From NCBI RefSeq assembly GCF_056746865.1, contig NZ_CM163382.1: 64,000 nt of DNA; one strand, written 5' to 3'. A model generated the notes under the pieces. The model ran no database searches, had not been told where the DNA came from, and worked only from the letters and a program-made list of their open reading frames with translations. The stretch's first letter is position 1. Each line of letters opens with the position of its first letter. Of this stretch, positions 10,603 through 62,174 are shown in pieces. The position numbers and the translations under genes were made by a program.

Positions 10603-12845
<2,243 letters not shown>

Positions 12846-18207: not shown

Positions 18208-18280
18208 GATATAAAAAACCCGCCCCTGACAGGCGGGAAGAACGGCAACTAAAACTTTATTCAGTGGCATTTAGATCTAT

Positions 18281-18388
18281 GTCGCATCCGGCAATTGGTG
18301 CACGATGCCTGATGCGACGCTGGCGCGTCTTATCAGGCCTACATTGGTGCCGGATCGGTAGACCGGATAAGGCGTTCACGCCGCATTC
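18281..18388. repeat. REP/BIME cluster between convergent fre and fadA
   Basis: Repeated GCCTGATGCGACGC and GCCGGATaaggcgttcacgccgcATCCGGC-type palindromic units. Confidence 0.75.
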
Positions 18389-18397
18389 GGTAAGTGG

Positions 18398-19570
<1,173 letters not shown>

Positions 19571-31300: not shown

Positions 31301-31420
31301 TGCCTGGCGGCCTTAGCGCGGTGGTCCCACCTGACCCCATGCCGAACTCAGAAGTGAAACGCCGTAGCGCCGATGGTAGTGTGGGGTCTCCCCATGCGAG
31401 AGTAGGGAACTGCCAGGCAT
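31301..31420 (+). rRNA. rrfA: 5S ribosomal RNA
   Basis: TGCCTGGCGGCC...GGGAACTGCCAGGCAT, 120 nt. Confidence 0.97.
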
Positions 31421-31430
31421 CAAATTAAGC

Positions 31431-31460
31431 AGAAGGCCATCCGTCAGGATGGCCTTTTTG
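31431..31460 (+). terminator. rrnA operon rho-independent terminator
   Basis: Hairpin aaggccatcc-gtca-ggatggcctt followed by TTTTT. Confidence 0.85.
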
Positions 31461-31520
31461 CGCTGGAGCAGAAGAAGGCCGGATGCGACGCTGGCTGCGT
31501 CTGATCCAGCCTACTCTTGC

Positions 31521-32048
31521 TTATCCGTCCTGATTTTGCATCCACTCCACCACAAAATCAGCCAGCCCCCCAACATCATTAATATCCAGTAACGCGACAT
31601 CAAGATTAAGTGACACATCACTGGCTACAGCAATAACATGTCTGTCTATCACTAATTCTTCCGGTCGATGTCCGGCTCCATCGCGAAAAAGCACAATCTT
31701 TGCGATCTCTTCATGCTTAAACCCTTCGACCAGAATCAAATCCAGCTTTGAGGTATCCATTCGACTTGCGAGAAAATGTAGATCCAGCTCTTCTTCGTCT
31801 GGTGTTTCCGTCATCAAGGCCCATCGCTGCTGGCTGGCAACGATGGTTTGTGCCGCGCCAGCCTTGCGCAGCTCATAGCTATCTTTGCCCGGTTTATCAA
31901 CATCCATATCATGGTGCGTATGCTTAATCAGCCCTGGACGGATCCCTCTGGCGCATAATGCCGGGATCAGTTTTTTCAGCAGCGTAGTTTTTCCAGTGCC
32001 GCTCCACGCGGCAAAGGCGAGTAACGGTATCATCGTTTTTCCTGCCAT
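31521..32048 (-). CDS. mobB: Molybdopterin-guanine dinucleotide biosynthesis adapter protein MobB (P-loop GTPase)
   Basis: 175-aa ORF with Walker A (SGTGKTTL); overlaps the mobA 3' end by 19 nt. Confidence 0.9.
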
Positions 32049-34813: not shown

Positions 34814-36244
34814 ATGATACGTAAGTCAGCTACAGGTGTTATTGTTGCGTTAGCCGTAATCTGGGGTGGTGGCACATGGTACACAGGTACGCAAATTCAG
34901 CCTGGTGTCGAAAAGTTTATTAAAGATTTTAACGATGCTAAAAAGAAAGGTGAACATGCCTGCGATATGACGTTAAGTTATAAAAACTTTGACAAAGGCT
35001 TTTTTAATTCTCATTTTCAAATGCAAATAACATTTGATAACGGTGCACCCGATCTCAATATCAAGCCAGGCCAGAAAGTTGCATTTGATGTGGATGTTGA
35101 GCACGGTCCGTTGCCCATCACAATGTTAATGCGTGGTAATGTCATCCCCGCACTGGCAGCGGCAAAAGTGAACTTAGTGAATAATGAACTGACACAACCG
35201 CTATTTATCGCCGCGAAAAATAAATCGCCCGTGGAAGCGACATTGCGATTCGCGTTTGGTGGCTCATTCTCTACGACATTAGATGTTGCCCCTGCAGAGT
35301 ATGGAAAGTTTTCTTTTGGTGAGGGCCAGTTTACTTTTAATGGTGATGGTAGTTCATTGTCTAACCTGGATATTGAAGGCAAAGTCGAAGATATTGTTCT
35401 GCAATTATCACCAATGAACAAAGTAACGGCAAAAAGTTTTACCATTGATTCTCTGGCGCGATTAGAAGAAAAGAAATTTCCGGTTGGTGAAAGCGAGTCG
35501 AAATTTAATCAGATTAACATTATCAATCACGGGGAAGACGTTGCCCAAATCGATGCTTTCGTTGCAAAAACCAGGCTGGATCGCGTTAAAGACAAAGATT
35601 ATATCAATGTCAATCTGACCTACGAACTTGATAAGTTAACAAAAGGGAATCAGCAACTCGGTAGTGGTGAGTGGTCATTGATTGCTGAATCTATTGATCC
35701 CTCAGCAGTGCGCCAATTTATCATCCAGTATAACATTGCGATGCAGAAGCAGCTTGCTGCACACCCTGAGTTAGCAAACGATGAAGTTGCTCTGCAAGAA
35801 GTGAATGCTGCATTGTTCAAAGAGTATTTACCGTTATTACAAAAAAGTGAGCCGACCATTAAACAACCGGTAAGATGGAAGAATGCACTCGGCGAACTAA
35901 ATGCCAATCTGGATATCAGTATTGCCGACCCAGCCAAATCCTCATCATCCACAAACAAAGATATTAAATCGCTCAATTTTGATGTGAAGTTACCGCTTAA
36001 TGTCGTCACAGAAACCGCAAAACAGCTTAATTTATCTGAAGGAATGGATGCTGAAAAAGCGCAAAAGCGGGCTGATAAACAAATCAGCGGGATGATGACA
36101 TTAGGTCAGATGTTTCAGTTAATCACGATTGACAACAATACCGCCTCGCTGCAACTGCGTTATACACCGGGTAAAGTTGTTTTTAACGGACAGGAAATGA
36201 GCGAAGAAGAATTTATGTCTCGTGCCGGACGTTTTGTTCATTAA
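34814..36244 (+). CDS. yihF: DUF945 family protein YihF, N-terminal signal/TM segment, function unknown
   Basis: ORF 34772-36244; likely start ATG 34814 (MIRKSATGVIVALAVIWGGGTWYTG...), 476 aa. Confidence 0.85.
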   Translation: MIRKSATGVIVALAVIWGGGTWYTGTQIQPGVEKFIKDFNDAKKKGEHACDMTLSYKNFDKGFFNSHFQMQITFDNGAPDLNIKPGQKVAFDVDVEHGPLPITMLMRGNVIPALAAAKVNLVNNELTQPLFIAAKNKSPVEATLRFAFGGSFSTTLDVAPAEYGKFSFGEGQFTFNGDGSSLSNLDIEGKVEDIVLQLSPMNKVTAKSFTIDSLARLEEKKFPVGESESKFNQINIINHGEDVAQIDAFVAKTRLDRVKDKDYINVNLTYELDKLTKGNQQLGSGEWSLIAESIDPSAVRQFIIQYNIAMQKQLAAHPELANDEVALQEVNAALFKEYLPLLQKSEPTIKQPVRWKNALGELNANLDISIADPAKSSSSTNKDIKSLNFDVKLPLNVVTETAKQLNLSEGMDAEKAQKRADKQISGMMTLGQMFQLITIDNNTASLQLRYTPGKVVFNGQEMSEEEFMSRAGRFVH

Positions 36245-40367: not shown

Positions 40368-40514
40368 GATTCGCCTGAACATGCCCTTTTTTCGTAAGTA
40401 AGCAACATAAGCTGTCACGTTTTGTGATGGCTATTAGAAATTCCTATGCAACAACTGAAAAAAAATTACAAAAAGTGCTTTCTGAACTGAACAAAAAAGA
40501 GTAAAGTTAGTCGC

Positions 40515-40623
40515 GTAGGGTACAGAGGTAAGATGTTCTATCTTTCAGACCTTTTACTTCACGTAATCGGATTTGGCTGAATATTTTAGCCGCCCCAGTC
40601 AGTAATGACTGGGGCGTTTTTTA
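40515..40623 (+). ncRNA. spf: Spot 42 small regulatory RNA
   Basis: GTAGGGTACAGAGGTAAGATGTTCTATCTTTCAGACCTTTTACTTCACGTAATCGGATTTGGCTG... ending in terminator GCCCCAGTCAGTAATGACTGGGGCGTTTTTT; recognised by sequence. Confidence 0.92.
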
Positions 40624-40647
40624 TTGGGCGAAAGAAAAGCTCTGTAA

Positions 40648-40730
40648 TGCCTGATGCGCCCTGTTTATCAGGCCAACGGTAGAAGTGTAATCTATTGAAT
40701 TTACGGGCCGGATACGCCACATCCGGCACA
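40648..40730. repeat. REP/BIME elements between spf and engB
   Basis: GCCTGATGCGCCctgtttATCAGGCC and GCCGGATacgccacATCCGGC palindromic units. Confidence 0.7.
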
Positions 40731-40748: not shown

Positions 40749-41381
40749 TTATTCGCCGTCCTGCGTTTCTTCTACAGGCTGCATCTCGCTAAACCAGGTA
40801 TCCAGTTTCTGCCGCAGCTTGTCCACGCCTTGTTTCTTCAGTGAAGAGAACGTTTCAACCTGCACATCACCGTTAAACGCCAGCACCGCTTCACGCACCA
40901 TATTCAATTGCGCTTTACGTGCGCCGCTTGCCAGTTTGTCCGCTTTGGTCAGCAGCACCAGCACGGCGATATTGCTGTCTACCGCCCACTCAATCATCTG
41001 CTGATCCAAATCTTTCAGCGGATGGCGAATATCCATTAGCACCACCAGACCTTGCAGGCTCTGACGTTTTTCGAGGTATTCGCCGAGCGCGCGCTGCCAT
41101 TTGCGCTTCATCTCTTCCGGGACTTCCGCGTAGCCATAGCCGGGCAAGTCAACCAGACGCTTGCCGTCAGCCACTTCAAACAGGTTGATAAGCTGGGTGC
41201 GCCCTGGGGTTTTTGAGGTCCGCGCCAGGCTTTTCTGGTTAGTCAGCGTGTTCAGCGCGCTGGATTTACCTGCGTTGGAACGGCCTGCAAAAGCCACTTC
41301 AATTCCGGTATCGGAAGGTAAGTGGCGAATATCAGGCGCACTCATCACAAAATGCGTCTGTTGATAATTCAAATTAGTCAA
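40749..41381 (-). CDS. engB: Ribosome biogenesis GTPase EngB (YihA)
   Basis: 210-aa ORF with G1 motif GRSNAGKSS; matches YihA/EngB. Confidence 0.93.
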
Positions 41382-41651: not shown

Positions 41652-41896
41652 ATAGAGCGAGGACGCTAACAGGAACAATGACTCAGGATGAGGGTCAGGA
41701 GCGCCAGGAGGCGAAGACAGAGGATTGTCAGGAAGACAAACGTCCGGAGACGTAATTAAACGGAAATGGAATCAACACGGATTGTTCCGGCTAATGGAAA
41801 AACAGGGTGTGTTGGCGGCCTGCAAGGATTGTAAGACCCGTTAAGGGTTATGAGTCAGGAAAAAAGGCGACAGAGTAATCTGTCGCCTTTTTTCTT
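41652..41896 (+). ncRNA. csrC: CsrC small RNA (CsrA-sequestering)
   Basis: ATAGAGCGAGGACGCTAACAGGAACAATGACTCAGGATGAGGGTCAGGAGCGCCAGGAGG...; dense AGGA/CAGGA motifs; intrinsic terminator GGCGACAGAGTAATCTGTCGCCTTTTTT at 3' end. Confidence 0.88.
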
Positions 41897-41962
41897 TGCT
41901 TGCTTTCTGTTAGATTCCGCCGCAAATCTATACTGAATAAAACGGCTAAAAGACGAACCATT

Positions 41963-44034: not shown

Positions 44035-44100
44035 ATAGTGAATGGCGCTTCGTTTACAAAGTAGAAAACGAAAGCGCCATCAATGTGCTGAGAACAAGAT

Positions 44101-44192
44101 TGCCTGATGCGCTACGCTTATCAGGCCTACAAAACCTGTTGAAAATATTGCTTTTGTAGGCCGGATAAGGCGTTCACGCCGCATCCGGCATG
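44101..44192. repeat. REP/BIME elements downstream of hemN
   Basis: GCCTGATGCGCTACGCTTATCAGGCCTAC ... GCCGGATAAGGCGTTCACGCCGCATCCGGC. Confidence 0.75.
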
Positions 44193-46954: not shown

Positions 46955-47049
46955 TTATAGCTTTTTACGGATAAAAAGCGCGAAGCATCAGAGAATTGAC
47001 GGAGAAAAAAGCCCATGCAGAGATGGGCTGAAAGTTTCCACGGCAACTA

Positions 47050-47075
47050 AATCCCGGCGTTGTTGCGCCGGGTAG
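47050..47075 (-). terminator. glnA terminator hairpin
   Basis: Inverted repeat cccggcg-ttgttg-cgccggg just downstream of the glnA stop on the minus strand. Confidence 0.65.
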
Positions 47076-47089
47076 TACAACTTCAACTA

Positions 47090-48582: not shown

Positions 48583-48720
48583 AGCGAAATCTGTGCCAAC
48601 TTTTAAATTGCCCCTAAAAGGCGTTATCATGCTTAACATCGTGCAAAAGGGCTGCACCATGATATGAATGTTGCACCAATATAGTGCTTCAATGGAAACA
48701 TTAAGCACCATATTGGTGCA
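48583..48720 (-). promoter_or_regulatory. glnAp2 sigma54 promoter (TTGGCACAGATTTCGCT at 48583-48599, minus strand) with upstream NtrC enhancer sites (48672-48687 and 48705-48720)
   Basis: -24 GG / -12 GC element on the glnA strand; palindromes TGCACCAATATAGTGC and GCACCATATTGGTGCA further upstream. Confidence 0.8.
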
Positions 48721-48871
48721 ATGACCTTTGGATAACCCTTTTTATGCTCCGTGAAAGCGATCACAAAGGGACTCTGCAATACTTGTTTGCGGAGGATGTT
48801 TGTGATCCTGTTTTGTAGTGCGATTAATCCGTGTACAATAACGCGCTATTTCTAATGCCTGAGGCAAAGTT

Positions 48872-51629: not shown

Positions 51630-53871
<2,242 letters not shown>

Positions 53872-53972: not shown

Positions 53973-55238
53973 ATGCTCACGAAAAAGAAATGGGCGTTAT
54001 TTAGTCTATTAACATTGTGTGGCGGTACAATTTATAAATTACCGTCGCTGAAAGATGCGTTTTATATCCCGATGCAGGAATATTTCCATTTGACCAATGG
54101 TCAAATTGGTAATGCTATGTCGGTAAACTCATTTGTCACGACAGTGGGCTTTTTTCTGTCTATTTATTTTGCCGATAAACTACCGCGCAGATACACCATG
54201 TCATTCTCACTCATTGCGACAGGATTACTGGGTGTTTATTTGACGACAATGCCGGGATATTGGGGCATCCTCTTTGTCTGGGCGCTATTTGGCGTTACTT
54301 GCGACATGATGAACTGGCCGGTCTTGCTCAAGTCGGTAAGTCGATTGGGCAATAGCGAACAACAAGGTCGGTTGTTTGGCTTCTTCGAAACAGGGCGTGG
54401 CATTGTCGATACCGTGGTGGCATTTTCTGCGTTGGCAGTATTTACCTGGTTTGGCAGTGGCTTATTGGGTTTTAAAGCAGGCATCTGGTTCTATTCCCTT
54501 ATTGTGATTGCCGTAGGCATTATCATTTTCTTTGTTCTGAATGACAAAGAAGAGGCACCGTCCGTTGAGGTGAAAAAAGAAGACGGAGCATCGAAAAACA
54601 CCAGTATGACCTCGGTGCTGAAAGACAAAACTATCTGGCTTATCGCTTTCAACGTCTTCTTCGTTTACGCGGTTTACTGTGGCCTGACATTCTTCATTCC
54701 ATTCCTGAAAAACATCTATCTATTGCCCGTTGCGCTGGTGGGGGCTTACGGCATCATTAACCAATACTGTCTGAAAATGATTGGTGGACCGATTGGTGGC
54801 ATGATTTCAGATAAGATCCTGAAATCGCCGAGTAAATATCTATGCTACACCTTTATCATCAGTACCGCTGCGCTCGTACTGTTGATTATGCTGCCGCACG
54901 AAAGTATGCCGGTATATTTAGGGATGGCATGTACGCTGGGCTTTGGCGCGATAGTCTTTACACAGCGAGCCGTATTTTTTGCACCTATCGGCGAAGCAAA
55001 AATTGCTGAAAATAAAACAGGCGCGGCGATGGCGTTGGGTAGCTTTATTGGTTACGCCCCGGCGATGTTCTGCTTCAGTCTGTATGGCTACATTCTGGAT
55101 TTAAATCCGGGGATTATTGGCTACAAAATTGTGTTTGGCATTATGGCCTGCTTCGCATTCTGTGGTGCGGTGGTTTCCGTAATGCTGGTTAAGCGTATTA
55201 GCCAACGTAAGAAAGAGATGCTGGCGGCTGAAGCTTGA
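53973..55238 (+). CDS. yihN: MFS-family transporter YihN
   Basis: 421-aa polytopic membrane ORF. Confidence 0.88.
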   Translation: MLTKKKWALFSLLTLCGGTIYKLPSLKDAFYIPMQEYFHLTNGQIGNAMSVNSFVTTVGFFLSIYFADKLPRRYTMSFSLIATGLLGVYLTTMPGYWGILFVWALFGVTCDMMNWPVLLKSVSRLGNSEQQGRLFGFFETGRGIVDTVVAFSALAVFTWFGSGLLGFKAGIWFYSLIVIAVGIIIFFVLNDKEEAPSVEVKKEDGASKNTSMTSVLKDKTIWLIAFNVFFVYAVYCGLTFFIPFLKNIYLLPVALVGAYGIINQYCLKMIGGPIGGMISDKILKSPSKYLCYTFIISTAALVLLIMLPHESMPVYLGMACTLGFGAIVFTQRAVFFAPIGEAKIAENKTGAAMALGSFIGYAPAMFCFSLYGYILDLNPGIIGYKIVFGIMACFAFCGAVVSVMLVKRISQRKKEMLAAEA

Positions 55239-55243
55239 TTAAT

Positions 55244-55321
55244 GGCCGGATGTGGCTTAATCCGGCCAACGGAAACCGTATCAACCGTAGGCCGGATAAG
55301 GCGTTTTCGCCGCATCCGGCA
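55244..55321. repeat. REP elements between convergent yihN and ompL
   Basis: GGCCGGATgtggcttaATCCGGCC and GCCGGATAAGGCGTTTTCGCCGCATCCGGC palindromic units. Confidence 0.75.
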
Positions 55322-55329
55322 GTTTTACA

Positions 55330-56022
55330 TCAGAAGAAATACTTCGTCCCGATACGAATCTGGTTTTGCTCGCGGTGGTACGGTTCGACATTACGATCTA
55401 ACCAGCGTAATTCGAAATAAGGGAGCCAGTGTTCATTAATGCGATAACGGAAGGTGTTAGTGATTTCCCAGTGATGATCTTTTCCATTGCTGCTATTAAA
55501 GTCATTTACTCGCATGAAGTAATGTGGTTCAAATGTATAGGAGAATTTCTCGGTGATTTTAAAATTCCAGTAGGTGCCAACTTCATAGGTGTCGTTATTA
55601 TCCAATTCGCCGTTCAAATCTGTAGAGCTGTAATTATTATGGTTATAGCGATTACGCACCGTCAGGTTAAACCACGGAGTAAATTTGTAGTTAACATCCA
55701 GATAAACGGCACCACCCGAACCGATACTCTTGTCATTAATTAAGCCACCGGGCTGGATGGTTAATTTATCGGTTGGTTTAAATAAAGGATACCAACCTTC
55801 AATTTCATTATAGCCATGTTTGAGTTCATCTTCTCGCTGAAAGGTGTAGGTATTGGTTAACATAATACCCGCGCCCATATCGAAGTTATAACCCACGCGT
55901 AGCATAACTTCGCCCTGATCGGAGGCGAGATTATATGCCTCCCTGTTTTCGACGTATGCGCCAGCAAATACCGAGGCAGAGGTCAGAGAGGATAATAGAA
56001 TTATTGCATTAATCTTTTTCAT
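55330..56022 (-). CDS. ompL: Outer-membrane porin OmpL
   Basis: ORF 55330-56088; start ATG 56020-56022 (MKKINAIILLSSLTSASVFA signal peptide), 230 aa; C-terminal aromatic residue (F). Confidence 0.88.
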   Translation of the reverse strand: MKKINAIILLSSLTSASVFAGAYVENREAYNLASDQGEVMLRVGYNFDMGAGIMLTNTYTFQREDELKHGYNEIEGWYPLFKPTDKLTIQPGGLINDKSIGSGGAVYLDVNYKFTPWFNLTVRNRYNHNNYSSTDLNGELDNNDTYEVGTYWNFKITEKFSYTFEPHYFMRVNDFNSSNGKDHHWEITNTFRYRINEHWLPYFELRWLDRNVEPYHREQNQIRIGTKYFF

Positions 56023-62116: not shown

Positions 62117-62174
62117 CTTTATTGAATAACGACATACCCGGCATGTAGCCTGATATGCCGTTATTTCAGCTCAG

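What the first reader, a model, noticed from the sequence alone, without database searches (positions are those of the whole stretch)
18281..18388. REP/BIME palindrome clusters at several convergent or operon-end junctions
Similar GCCTGATGCG / GCCGGATAAGGCG...CATCCGGC palindromic units recur at 18281-18388 (fre/fadA), 31476-31513 (after rrnA), 40648-40730 (spf/engB), 44101-44192 (after hemN) and 55244-55321 (yihN/ompL). They are non-coding structured repeats that can stabilise mRNA 3' ends and bind gyrase or IHF. They also explain intergenic sequence that would otherwise look like unannotated space.
Basis: seen in the sequence. Interest (0 to 1): 0.2.

Follow-up and report, generated by a model that had tools for sequence, protein, structure and literature searches.

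The report
Ordinary E. coli REP/BIME repeats
The five listed intergenic stretches are ordinary, already catalogued copies of the E. coli REP/BIME palindromic repeat family, sitting where convergent genes meet, so the finding is correct but not new.

Summary
The window is an E. coli chromosome segment (rhtB to yihR), about 98% identical to K-12. It holds nine full REP units and one fragment, all inside the five listed intervals and none elsewhere. A strict REP regex gives 7 hits against 0.027 in shuffles. Units match the published Y and Z2 sequences at 34/35 and 36/37.

- **fre/fadA:** BIME-2 type (Z2 plus Y).
- **spf/yihA and hemN/yshB:** BIME-1 type (Z1, long linker, Y).
- **yihN/ompL:** atypical pair.
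- **rrfA/mobB:** a single Z2-like REP.

All five sit at convergent gene junctions (5 of 9 convergent, 0 of 46 others). The K-12 counterparts of all five already appear in a published BIME table.

The functional claims are family knowledge. Site-level support exists only for gyrase: K-12-lineage cuts at fre/fadA and rrfA/mobB. IHF binding is unproven here.

That is within the range reported to stall ribosomes.

BIME module number at fre/fadA varies between strains (1, 2 or 3). Verdict: real, ordinary and already known.

The parts
18277..18293 (-). Site A, fragment: head of a Y-type REP (TGCCGGATGCGAC). It is the remnant left where further Z2-Y modules sit in K-12.
   Evidence: nhmmer E=0.039. 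It forms an inverted repeat with 18306-18318 (I20). Aligned with the K-12 three-module allele.
18305..18342 (+). Site A, Z2-type REP (TGCCTGATGCGACGCTGGCGCGTCTTATCAGGCCTAC), with CTAC foot.
   Evidence: 36/37 to the published Z2 sequence. nhmmer E=1.8e-8. Median 11 places per E. coli genome.
18358..18392 (-). Site A, degenerate Y-type REP. It ends 5 nt before the fadA stop codon (18398-18400, minus strand). Together with the Z2 unit it forms one BIME-2 module in the fadBA 3' UTR, upstream of the fadBA terminator.
   Evidence: 31/35 to the published Y sequence. nhmmer E=4.9e-9. Distance to the stop codon.
18219..18237 (-). Intrinsic terminator hairpin plus T-run on the minus strand (CCCGCCTGTCAGGGGCGGG TTTTTT), downstream of the BIME for fadBA transcripts. 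It is context for the BIME, not a REP.
   Evidence: Terminator scan.
31477..31514 (+). Site B, solitary Z2-like REP with a Y-like head, a 1-nt insertion and a stem mismatch (GGCCGGATGCGACGCTGGCTGCGTCTGATCCAGCCTAC). It lies 6 nt after the mobB stop codon (31521-31523, minus strand) and 16 nt after the rrnA terminator hairpin (31437-31460).
   Evidence: nhmmer E=1.2e-6. RNA fold -26.1 kcal/mol, z=-4.9. K-12 orthologue. Present at 80% or more query coverage in 5280 of 5426 genomes.
40647..40676 (+). Site C, Z1-like REP (foot is CAAC rather than CTAC).
   Evidence: nhmmer E=9.3e-6. Aligned to the fepA-entD BIME-1.
40677..40705 (.). Site C, L-type linker containing TAATCTATTGAAT. Its reverse strand, ATTCAATAGATTA, is one mismatch from the IHF consensus WATCAANNNNTTR.
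   Evidence: IHF scan. Aligned by eye with the fepA-entD linker CAATATATTGAAT.
40706..40728 (-). Site C, short Y-like REP (GCCGGATACGCCACATCCGGC) with no GTAG foot, 20 nt from the yihA/engB stop codon (40749-40751).
   Evidence: nhmmer E=0.005. Strict regex hit.
44101..44130 (+). Site D, Z1-type REP (TGCCTGATGCGCTACGCTTATCAGGCCTAC). It is identical to the Z1 unit of the fepA-entD BIME-1.
   Evidence: nhmmer E=4e-5.
44131..44155 (.). Site D, 25-nt linker (AAAACCTGTTGAAAATATTGCTTTT) between the CTAC and GTAG feet. It is a shorter variant of the BIME-1 L linker.
   Evidence: Alignment A1. No IHF match with 1 mismatch or fewer.
44156..44191 (-). Site D, consensus Y-type REP (GTAGGCCGGATAAGGCGTTCACGCCGCATCCGGCA).
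   Evidence: 34/35 to the published Y sequence. nhmmer E=6e-11. 40 or more places per genome in 5425 of 5426 genomes.
55244..55270 (+). Site E, short REP (GGCCGGATGTGGCTTAATCCGGCCAAC) with a CAAC foot. It starts 5 nt after the yihN stop codon (55236-55238).
   Evidence: nhmmer E=6e-4. Regex hit. Distance.
55287..55321 (-). Site E, Y-type REP (32/35 to the published Y sequence). It ends 8 nt before the ompL stop codon (55330-55332, minus strand).
   Evidence: The whole 91-nt intergenic region folds at z=-5.5 on the plus strand and z=-4.9 on the minus strand. It contains no terminator-like site.

Best explanation
These are copies of the E. coli REP (palindromic unit) family, arranged as BIMEs.

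**Classification**
- fre/fadA is a single-module BIME-2 (Z2 plus Y).
- spf/yihA and hemN/yshB are BIME-1-type (Z1, L linker, Y).
- yihN/ompL is an atypical pair.
- rrfA/mobB is a solitary Z2-like REP.

**Shown here**
- Family identity.
- Genome-wide dispersal.
- Exclusive placement at convergent gene ends.
- Strong predicted hairpins on the transcribed strands.
- Strain-to-strain variation in module number.

**Inferred from published work on the family**
1. The elements are non-autonomous. They were spread and remodelled by the REP-associated Y1 transposase (TnpA_REP/RAYT, yafM in K-12, not in this window) and by recombination between repeats.
2. They are transcribed as part of the 3' UTRs of the flanking genes. 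For fadBA the BIME lies between the stop codon and the terminator. There the stem-loops block 3'-to-5' exonucleases and so set or stabilise mRNA 3' ends. At yihN/ompL the BIME is the only structured element between the two genes.
3. Where the REP begins 15 nt or less after a stop codon, it probably stalls the terminating ribosome and lowers output of that gene (Liang, Rudd and Deutscher 2015). This applies to fadA (5 nt), mobB (6 nt), yihN (5 nt) and ompL (8 nt).
4. As DNA, the BIME-2 at fre/fadA is a gyrase site. The BIME-1 linkers may bind IHF.
For: **Family identity**
- Regex: 7 hits against 0.027 expected.
- The profile scan finds only these sites.
- 34/35 and 36/37 identity to the published Y and Z2 sequences.
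- Arms identical to the fepA-entD BIME-1.
- The definition in PMC3333891 is met.

**Copy number**
- Y unit: 40 or more places per genome, capped. Z2 unit: median 11. Both occur in 5425 of 5426 genomes.

**Placement**
- 5 of 9 convergent junctions against 0 of 46 other junctions, Fisher p=3.6e-5.

**Structure**
- RNA folding z-scores are -4.6 to -7.5 at four of five sites.
- No REP unit is a terminator-like site.
- The fadBA terminator lies downstream of the BIME.

**Plasticity**
- K-12 has 3 Z2-Y modules at fre/fadA against 1 here, and a different composition at hemN/yshB.
- Span classes of about 400, 492 and 591 bp occur across genomes.
- This agrees with the statement in PMC3333891 that tandem BIME number varies by strain.

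**Gyrase**
- The fadA-fre BIME-2 has 1 (RifCfx) and 3 (Oxo) cleavage sites, and the rrfA/mobB REP has 1 (Cfx), in W3110.
- BIME-2 elements are enriched for cleavage genome-wide.

**Translation**
- REPs fewer than 16 nt from a stop codon downregulate translation, as cited in PMC12306157.
- Distances measured here are 5-8 nt for four genes (with mobB corrected by reading).
Against: - No site-level RNA or protein data exist for this strain.
- Site C folds only marginally better than shuffles (z=-1.5).
- IHF consensus support is weak. BIME-1 elements are depleted, not enriched, for gyrase cuts (3 observed against 9 expected).
- spf/yihA, hemN/yshB and yihN/ompL had zero gyrase cleavage sites in W3110.
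- The window's fre/fadA allele has one module with a degenerate Y unit. Gyrase cuts Y units preferentially, so affinity may be lower than in K-12.
- Three units lack GTAG, which TnpA_REP requires for binding and cleavage. These copies are probably immobile relics.
- The primary paper of Liang et al. could not be read here. The 15-nt rule is therefore taken second-hand.
Confidence: 0.95

Rival explanations
1. The palindromes are simply Rho-independent transcription terminators for the convergent genes. They are not members of a dispersed repeat family.
For: They are GC-rich hairpins at gene 3' ends, with strongly negative folding z-scores.
Against: - None of the REP units is followed by a T-run, and the terminator scan flags none of them.
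- Separate canonical terminators lie next to them: fadBA at 18237-18219, spf at 40591-40616, and the rrnA hairpin at 31437-31460.
- The same sequences recur at tens of loci per genome.
Confidence: 0.02
2. The similarity among the five intervals is a chance resemblance of GC-rich palindromes.
For: Three units (C1, C2, E1) are short and diverged and lack the GTAG foot. Site C folds only marginally better than shuffles.
Against: - 7 strict hits against 0.027 in shuffles.
- nhmmer E-values down to 6e-11.
- Near-identity to published consensus sequences.
- The loci are listed in a published BIME table.
Confidence: 0.01
3. The intervals encode independent small RNAs or small proteins, and the palindromes are incidental.
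For: REP-containing 3' UTRs can give rise to sRNAs. K-12 glnZ carries a REP, and PMC12306157 notes REPs within sRNAs.
Against: - No Rfam family reaches its gathering score in any of the five intervals.
- No gene is annotated there in 118UI or K-12.
- No promoter-like site was found at sites A or E.
- Indel variation in whole REP modules between strains is not the pattern expected of a coding sequence or a conserved sRNA.
Confidence: 0.02

Closest known systems
E. coli REP / palindromic units (Y, Z1, Z2) organised as BIME-1, BIME-2 and atypical BIMEs (Gilson, Bachellier, Hofnung nomenclature; Ton-Hoang et al. 2012, PMC3333891)
   Same: - Sequence: 34/35 to Y and 36/37 to Z2, and the Z1 unit is identical to the fepA-entD copy.
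- Imperfect palindrome with a GTAG/CTAC foot in 6 of 9 units.
- Inverse pairing with short or long linkers.
- Extragenic location at 3' ends of transcription units.
- High copy number.
- Strain-variable number of tandem modules.
   Different: Nothing of substance.
- This strain's alleles differ from K-12 in module number: 1 against 3 at fre/fadA, and a clean Z1-L-Y against a truncated Z1 plus extra Z2 at hemN/yshB.
- Three units are short, diverged and lack GTAG.
- The site D linker is 25 nt, against 35 nt in the fepA-entD BIME-1.
RIP/RIB elements (BIME-1 with an IHF site in the L linker; Boccard and Prentki 1993; Oppenheim et al. 1993, cited from the reference lists)
   Same: Sites C and D have the Z1-linker-Y architecture. 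The site C linker shares the AAT..TATTGAAT core with the fepA-entD L linker.
   Different: The best IHF consensus match is 1 mismatch at site C. There is none with 1 mismatch or fewer at site D. IHF binding was not tested.
REPIN/RAYT systems (Bertels and Rainey 2011, PMC3116915; Nunvar et al. 2010, PMC2817692)
   Same: Inverted REP doublets that behave as non-autonomous elements associated with a single-copy Y1 transposase.
   Different: No RAYT gene lies in this window. Mobility of these particular copies is not shown, and three units lack the GTAG needed by TnpA_REP.

Membership tests
E. coli REP (palindromic unit) family | 20-40 nt imperfect palindrome able to form a stem-loop | tested here: met
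   Units are 26-38 nt. Stems are predicted at every unit, with z-scores of -4.6 to -7.5 at four of five sites. Site C is weaker, at z=-1.5.
E. coli REP (palindromic unit) family | Sequence match to the Y, Z1 or Z2 consensus | tested here: met
   - D2 is 34/35, E2 is 32/35 and A2 is 31/35 to the published Y sequence.
- A1 is 36/37 to the published Z2 sequence.
- D1 is identical to the Z1 unit of the fepA-entD BIME-1.
- C1, C2, E1 and B1 are diverged variants, with nhmmer E-values from 1e-6 to 5e-3.
E. coli REP (palindromic unit) family | Conserved GTAG tetranucleotide 5' of the palindrome foot (CTAC in the inverse copy) | tested here: met
   Present in 6 of 9 units (A1, A2, B1, D1, D2, E2). Absent in C1 (CAAC), C2 and E1 (CAAC). 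It is met for the family at every site except C.
E. coli REP (palindromic unit) family | High copy number dispersed over the chromosome | tested here: met
   The Y unit has 40 or more places per genome (cap reached in 2921 records). The Z2 unit has a median of 11 places. Both occur in 5425 of 5426 genomes.
E. coli REP (palindromic unit) family | Extragenic location | tested here: met
   All units lie between annotated genes. Genome-wide hits listed have no annotated feature beneath them.
BIME-2 | Alternating Z2 and Y units in inverse orientation with short linkers, often in tandem modules | tested here: met
   Site A is a Z2 unit (18305-18342, plus strand), a 15-nt linker and a Y unit (18358-18392, minus strand). 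K-12 has three such modules at the same locus. The locus is labelled BIME-2 'fadA>-<fre' in Sutormin et al. 2019, Table DS3.
BIME-2 | Preferential gyrase binding and cleavage | not testable with these tools
   Published Topo-seq in W3110 records 1 and 3 cleavage sites in the three-module K-12 allele. There are no data for this strain's one-module allele.
BIME-1 (RIP/RIB) | One Z1 and one Y unit in inverse orientation, separated by a long, conserved L linker, in single copy | tested here: met
   - Site D: Z1, 25-nt linker, Y.
- Site C: Z1-like unit, 29-nt linker, short Y-like unit.
- Both align to the fepA-entD BIME-1.
- The K-12 counterpart of site C is listed as BIME-1 in Table DS3.
- The K-12 hemN/yshB allele is listed under BIME-2 because it carries an extra Z2 unit.
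BIME-1 (RIP/RIB) | IHF binding site in the L linker | tested here: inconclusive
   Against the consensus WATCAANNNNTTR, site C has one 1-mismatch match (40700-40688). Site D has none with 1 mismatch or fewer. The background is 0.9 such matches per kb. The reference fepA-entD linker also has only a TTGAAT-type, 1-mismatch core (by eye).

The most novel reading that the evidence does not exclude
The most novel reading not excluded concerns the yihN/ompL junction. A single BIME fills the whole 91-nt gap between the two genes, with its arms starting 5 nt after one stop codon and 8 nt after the other. It could therefore act as a two-sided translational brake and 3'-end determinant, coupling the output of two convergent genes of the sulfoquinovose cluster. 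In the same spirit, contraction of the fre/fadA BIME-2 from three modules to one could measurably change gyrase recruitment and fadBA expression between lineages. Even if true, both would be applications of published REP mechanisms, not a new kind of element.
Probability: 0.15. Interest if true: 0.25.

Novelty: already known. Interest (0 to 1): 0.06.

Why it matters
It matters mainly for annotation. These elements account for all the sizeable convergent intergenic spacers in the window, and that space should not be mistaken for unannotated genes or sRNAs.

They also mark four of the indel differences between this strain and K-12: fre/fadA, hemN/yshB, the glnA 3' UTR, and breakpoints at yihN/ompL in other strains. 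This is useful for strain typing and for interpreting alignment gaps.

The short distance from stop codon to REP gives a cheap, testable prediction of post-transcriptional down-tuning for fadA, mobB, yihN and ompL.

None of this changes current understanding of REP/BIME biology.

Tried and rejected
- **Rfam scan of the whole window.** No family covers the REP intervals, and the gathering-threshold scan returned no REP or BIME family. It served only to confirm spf, csrC and rrnA as neighbours.
- **Linker-only BLAST against 5426 genomes.** The aim was to test whether the L linkers are themselves a repeated family. Only the orthologous locus was found (median 1 place per genome). At this database size a diverged 34-37-mer cannot reach significance, so the result says nothing about L-motif homology. 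It does show that the site C and D linkers are present in 5419 and 5269 genomes.
- **Fetching four top hits of the Y unit to sample other BIMEs.** All four were the same locus (fepA-entD), so only one independent comparator was gained.
- **IHF consensus scan.** The result is weak and cannot support or refute IHF binding.
- **Reading Liang et al. 2015 and Boccard and Prentki 1993 directly.** Neither is held. Their claims are cited second-hand from PMC12306157 and PMC2817692.
- **The K-12 extra sequence at rrfA/mobB as BIME variation.** Rejected. It is the rrn T1 terminator and a 5S-like remnant, not a REP.
- **Collection scans for Salmonella and other genera.** The cost is not justified for a known family.

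Full report
**What the window is.** A 1.1-kb probe around the finding matches 5425 of 5426 complete E. coli genomes and is 100% identical to strain 118UI and others. The whole window aligns to 118UI at 99.96-99.99%, apart from one IS3 copy in yihF that the window lacks. It aligns to K-12 MG1655 at about 95-99% over rhtB to yihR. Rfam independently places rrnA (16S, tRNA-Ile, tRNA-Ala, 23S, 5S), Spot 42 (40505-40623) and CsrC (41652-41905).

**Checking the observation.** The quoted strings are present at the quoted places. A strict, self-complementary REP frame (GCCKGAT, 6-26 nt, ATCMGGC) occurs 7 times. All hits fall inside the listed intervals, against a mean of 0.027 (maximum 1) in 300 dinucleotide-preserving shuffles.

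A profile HMM built from the units and run over the window with all filters off recovers nine full units and one fragment:

| Site | Unit coordinates |
|---|---|
| A (fre/fadA) | 18277-18293 (fragment), 18305-18342, 18358-18392 |
| B (rrfA/mobB) | 31477-31514 |
| C (spf/yihA) | 40647-40676, 40706-40728 |
| D (hemN/yshB) | 44101-44130, 44156-44191 |
| E (yihN/ompL) | 55244-55270, 55287-55321 |

The next best hit anywhere else has E=0.6.

**What the units are.** Nunvar et al. (PMC2817692, Table 1) print the Y and Z2 REPs that flank the K-12 RAYT gene.
- Unit 44156-44190 matches Y at 34/35, 55287-55321 at 32/35 and 18358-18392 at 31/35.
- The reverse complement of 18306-18342 matches Z2 at 36/37.
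- Unit 44101-44130 is identical to the Z1 arm of the BIME-1 between fepA and entD. That locus was retrieved from an O157 genome as the top off-locus hit of the Y unit.

Ton-Hoang et al. (PMC3333891) define the family as follows:
- REPs are 30-40 nt imperfect palindromes with a conserved GTAG at the foot.
- There are three types, y, z1 and z2, mostly paired in inverse orientation.
- BIME-1 is z1 plus y with a long L linker, in single copy, and often carries an IHF site.
- BIME-2 is z2 plus y with short linkers, in tandem copies.
- Atypical BIMEs are chimeras of the two.

By those criteria the sites classify as:

| Site | Class |
|---|---|
| A | one BIME-2 module plus a Y fragment |
| C, D | BIME-1 type |
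| E | atypical pair (short REP plus Y) |
| B | solitary Z2-like REP with a 1-nt insertion and a stem mismatch |

Six of nine units carry GTAG/CTAC. C1, C2 and E1 do not.

**Copy number and prior annotation.** The 38-nt Y unit has 40 or more places per genome, with the per-record cap reached in 2921 records. The Z2 unit has a median of 11 places. Both occur in 5425 of 5426 genomes, and none of the listed rows has an annotated feature beneath the match.

Sutormin et al. 2019 (PMC6379681), Table DS3, lists BIME intervals in W3110. One is labelled fadA>-<fre. Four more map onto the K-12 counterparts of the other four sites. The sum of W3110 and MG1655 coordinates is 7637801-7637804 for each, as expected inside the W3110 inversion. 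All five loci are thus already catalogued.

**Placement.** Of 55 gene junctions in the window, 9 are convergent, 9 divergent and 37 co-directional. REPs occupy 5 of the convergent junctions and none of the others (Fisher p=3.6e-5). The four convergent junctions without REPs have overlapping genes or spacers of about 40 bp.

**Structure and transcripts.** On the transcribed strands the clusters fold far better than shuffles:

| Site and strand | z-score |
|---|---|
| A, minus | -4.6 |
| B, minus | -4.9 |
| D, plus | -5.0 |
| D, minus | -7.5 |
| E, plus | -5.5 |
| E, minus | -4.9 |
| C, minus | -1.5 (weak) |

- At D and E the minimum-energy fold pairs the two inverse REPs with each other across the linker.
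- No REP unit is terminator-like, because none has a T-run.
- For fadBA, a canonical terminator (18237 to 18219, minus strand) lies downstream of the BIME. The BIME is therefore inside the fadBA 3' UTR.
- At yihN/ompL the BIME is the only structured element in the 91-nt spacer.

**Distance to stop codons.** The REP envelope begins 5 nt after the fadA stop, 6 nt after mobB (the stop is at 31521-31523, read; one search used a coordinate one base off), 5 nt after yihN and 8 nt after ompL. The distance is 20 nt for yihA, 32 nt for yshB, 66 nt for hemN and 69 nt for fre.

[quoted passage not shown] Four genes here meet that criterion. This is an inference, since the primary paper could not be opened.

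**DNA-level roles.**
- Gyrase cleavage sites are enriched in BIME-2, mostly in y units, and increase with rifampicin.
- In W3110 the fre/fadA BIME-2 has 1 (RifCfx) and 3 (Oxo) sites and the rrfA/mobB REP has 1 (Cfx). The spf/yihA, hemN/yshB and yihN/ompL intervals have none.
- BIME-1 elements as a class are depleted for cuts, at 3 observed against 9 expected.
- For IHF, the consensus scan gives a single 1-mismatch site in the site C linker and nothing at site D, against a background of 0.9 per kb. IHF binding remains a family-level expectation only.

**Plasticity.**
- Three of the window-versus-K-12 alignment breaks fall on REP sequence. K-12 has three Z2-Y modules at fre/fadA (a 383-bp spacer against 193 bp). 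It has a truncated Z1 plus an extra Z2 and Y tail at hemN/yshB. It also carries a Y-type REP insert in the glnA 3' UTR that the window lacks.
- Across genomes the 401-nt fre/fadA query spans about 391-402, 481-493 or 591 bp, which corresponds to one, two or three modules.
- At yihN/ompL, some strains' matches break at the edges of the Y unit.
- This matches the published statement that tandem BIME number at a locus varies among strains. It also fits the proposal that RAYT/TnpA_REP drives BIME dynamics.

**Verdict.** The elements are textbook REP/BIME repeats that are already catalogued at these loci. Interest is low. The only additions are the per-site classification, the stop-codon proximity at four genes, the relic status of three GTAG-less units, and the strain-specific module counts.

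Noticed in passing
window 51987-53244 (Rfam hit at 53054-53176, minus strand): An IS3-family element (ISEc31 in the 118UI annotation) interrupts yihM and is absent from K-12. The Rfam 'isrC Hfq binding RNA' hit (150 bits) lies inside this IS, over the 5' part of its transposase gene. It is therefore IS sequence, not a free-standing sRNA gene.
   Followed up: partly
window 47029-47078 (glnA 3' UTR, the glnZ region): K-12 carries about 110 bp more here, including a Y-type REP (K-12 4056520-4056556). That REP is listed as a BIME-2 with gyrase cuts in W3110. The window instead has a different 40-nt segment with the hairpin CCCGGCGTTGTTGCGCCGGG, so this strain's GlnZ sRNA would differ in its variable region.
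   Followed up: partly
window 31419-31465 (rrnA distal end): K-12 has about 167 bp more between rrfA and the last hairpin, comprising a T1-type terminator and a 5S-like remnant. In the window, 5S rRNA is followed directly by a single hairpin plus T-run at 31437-31460. The terminator scan misses this hairpin, probably because it extends the stem into the T-run.
   Followed up: partly
window 62123-62164 (yihR/yihS spacer): K-12 carries a G-rich repeat of about 110 bp here (…GGGGAGAGGGTTAGGGAGAGGGG…) of a different dispersed-repeat type. The window lacks it and has a short unrelated spacer.
   Followed up: no
window 35721-35726 (yihF): The closest sequenced relative, strain 118UI, has an extra 2.2-kb IS3-family insertion in yihF (DUF945) that the window lacks. 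yihF is therefore intact here.
   Followed up: no
window 44040-44085: A long hairpin (GAATGGCGCTTCGTTT…AAACGAAAGCGCCATC) lies between the hemN stop codon and the BIME-1. It has no clear T-run on either strand and is conserved in K-12. Its role (hemN 3' end?) was not examined.
   Followed up: no
window 10957-11208 and 48683-48790: Rfam finds EsrE/'Erse' inside the 3' end of ubiJ, and 'ES222' in the glnA-typA divergent spacer. Both are strong full-length matches.
   Followed up: no
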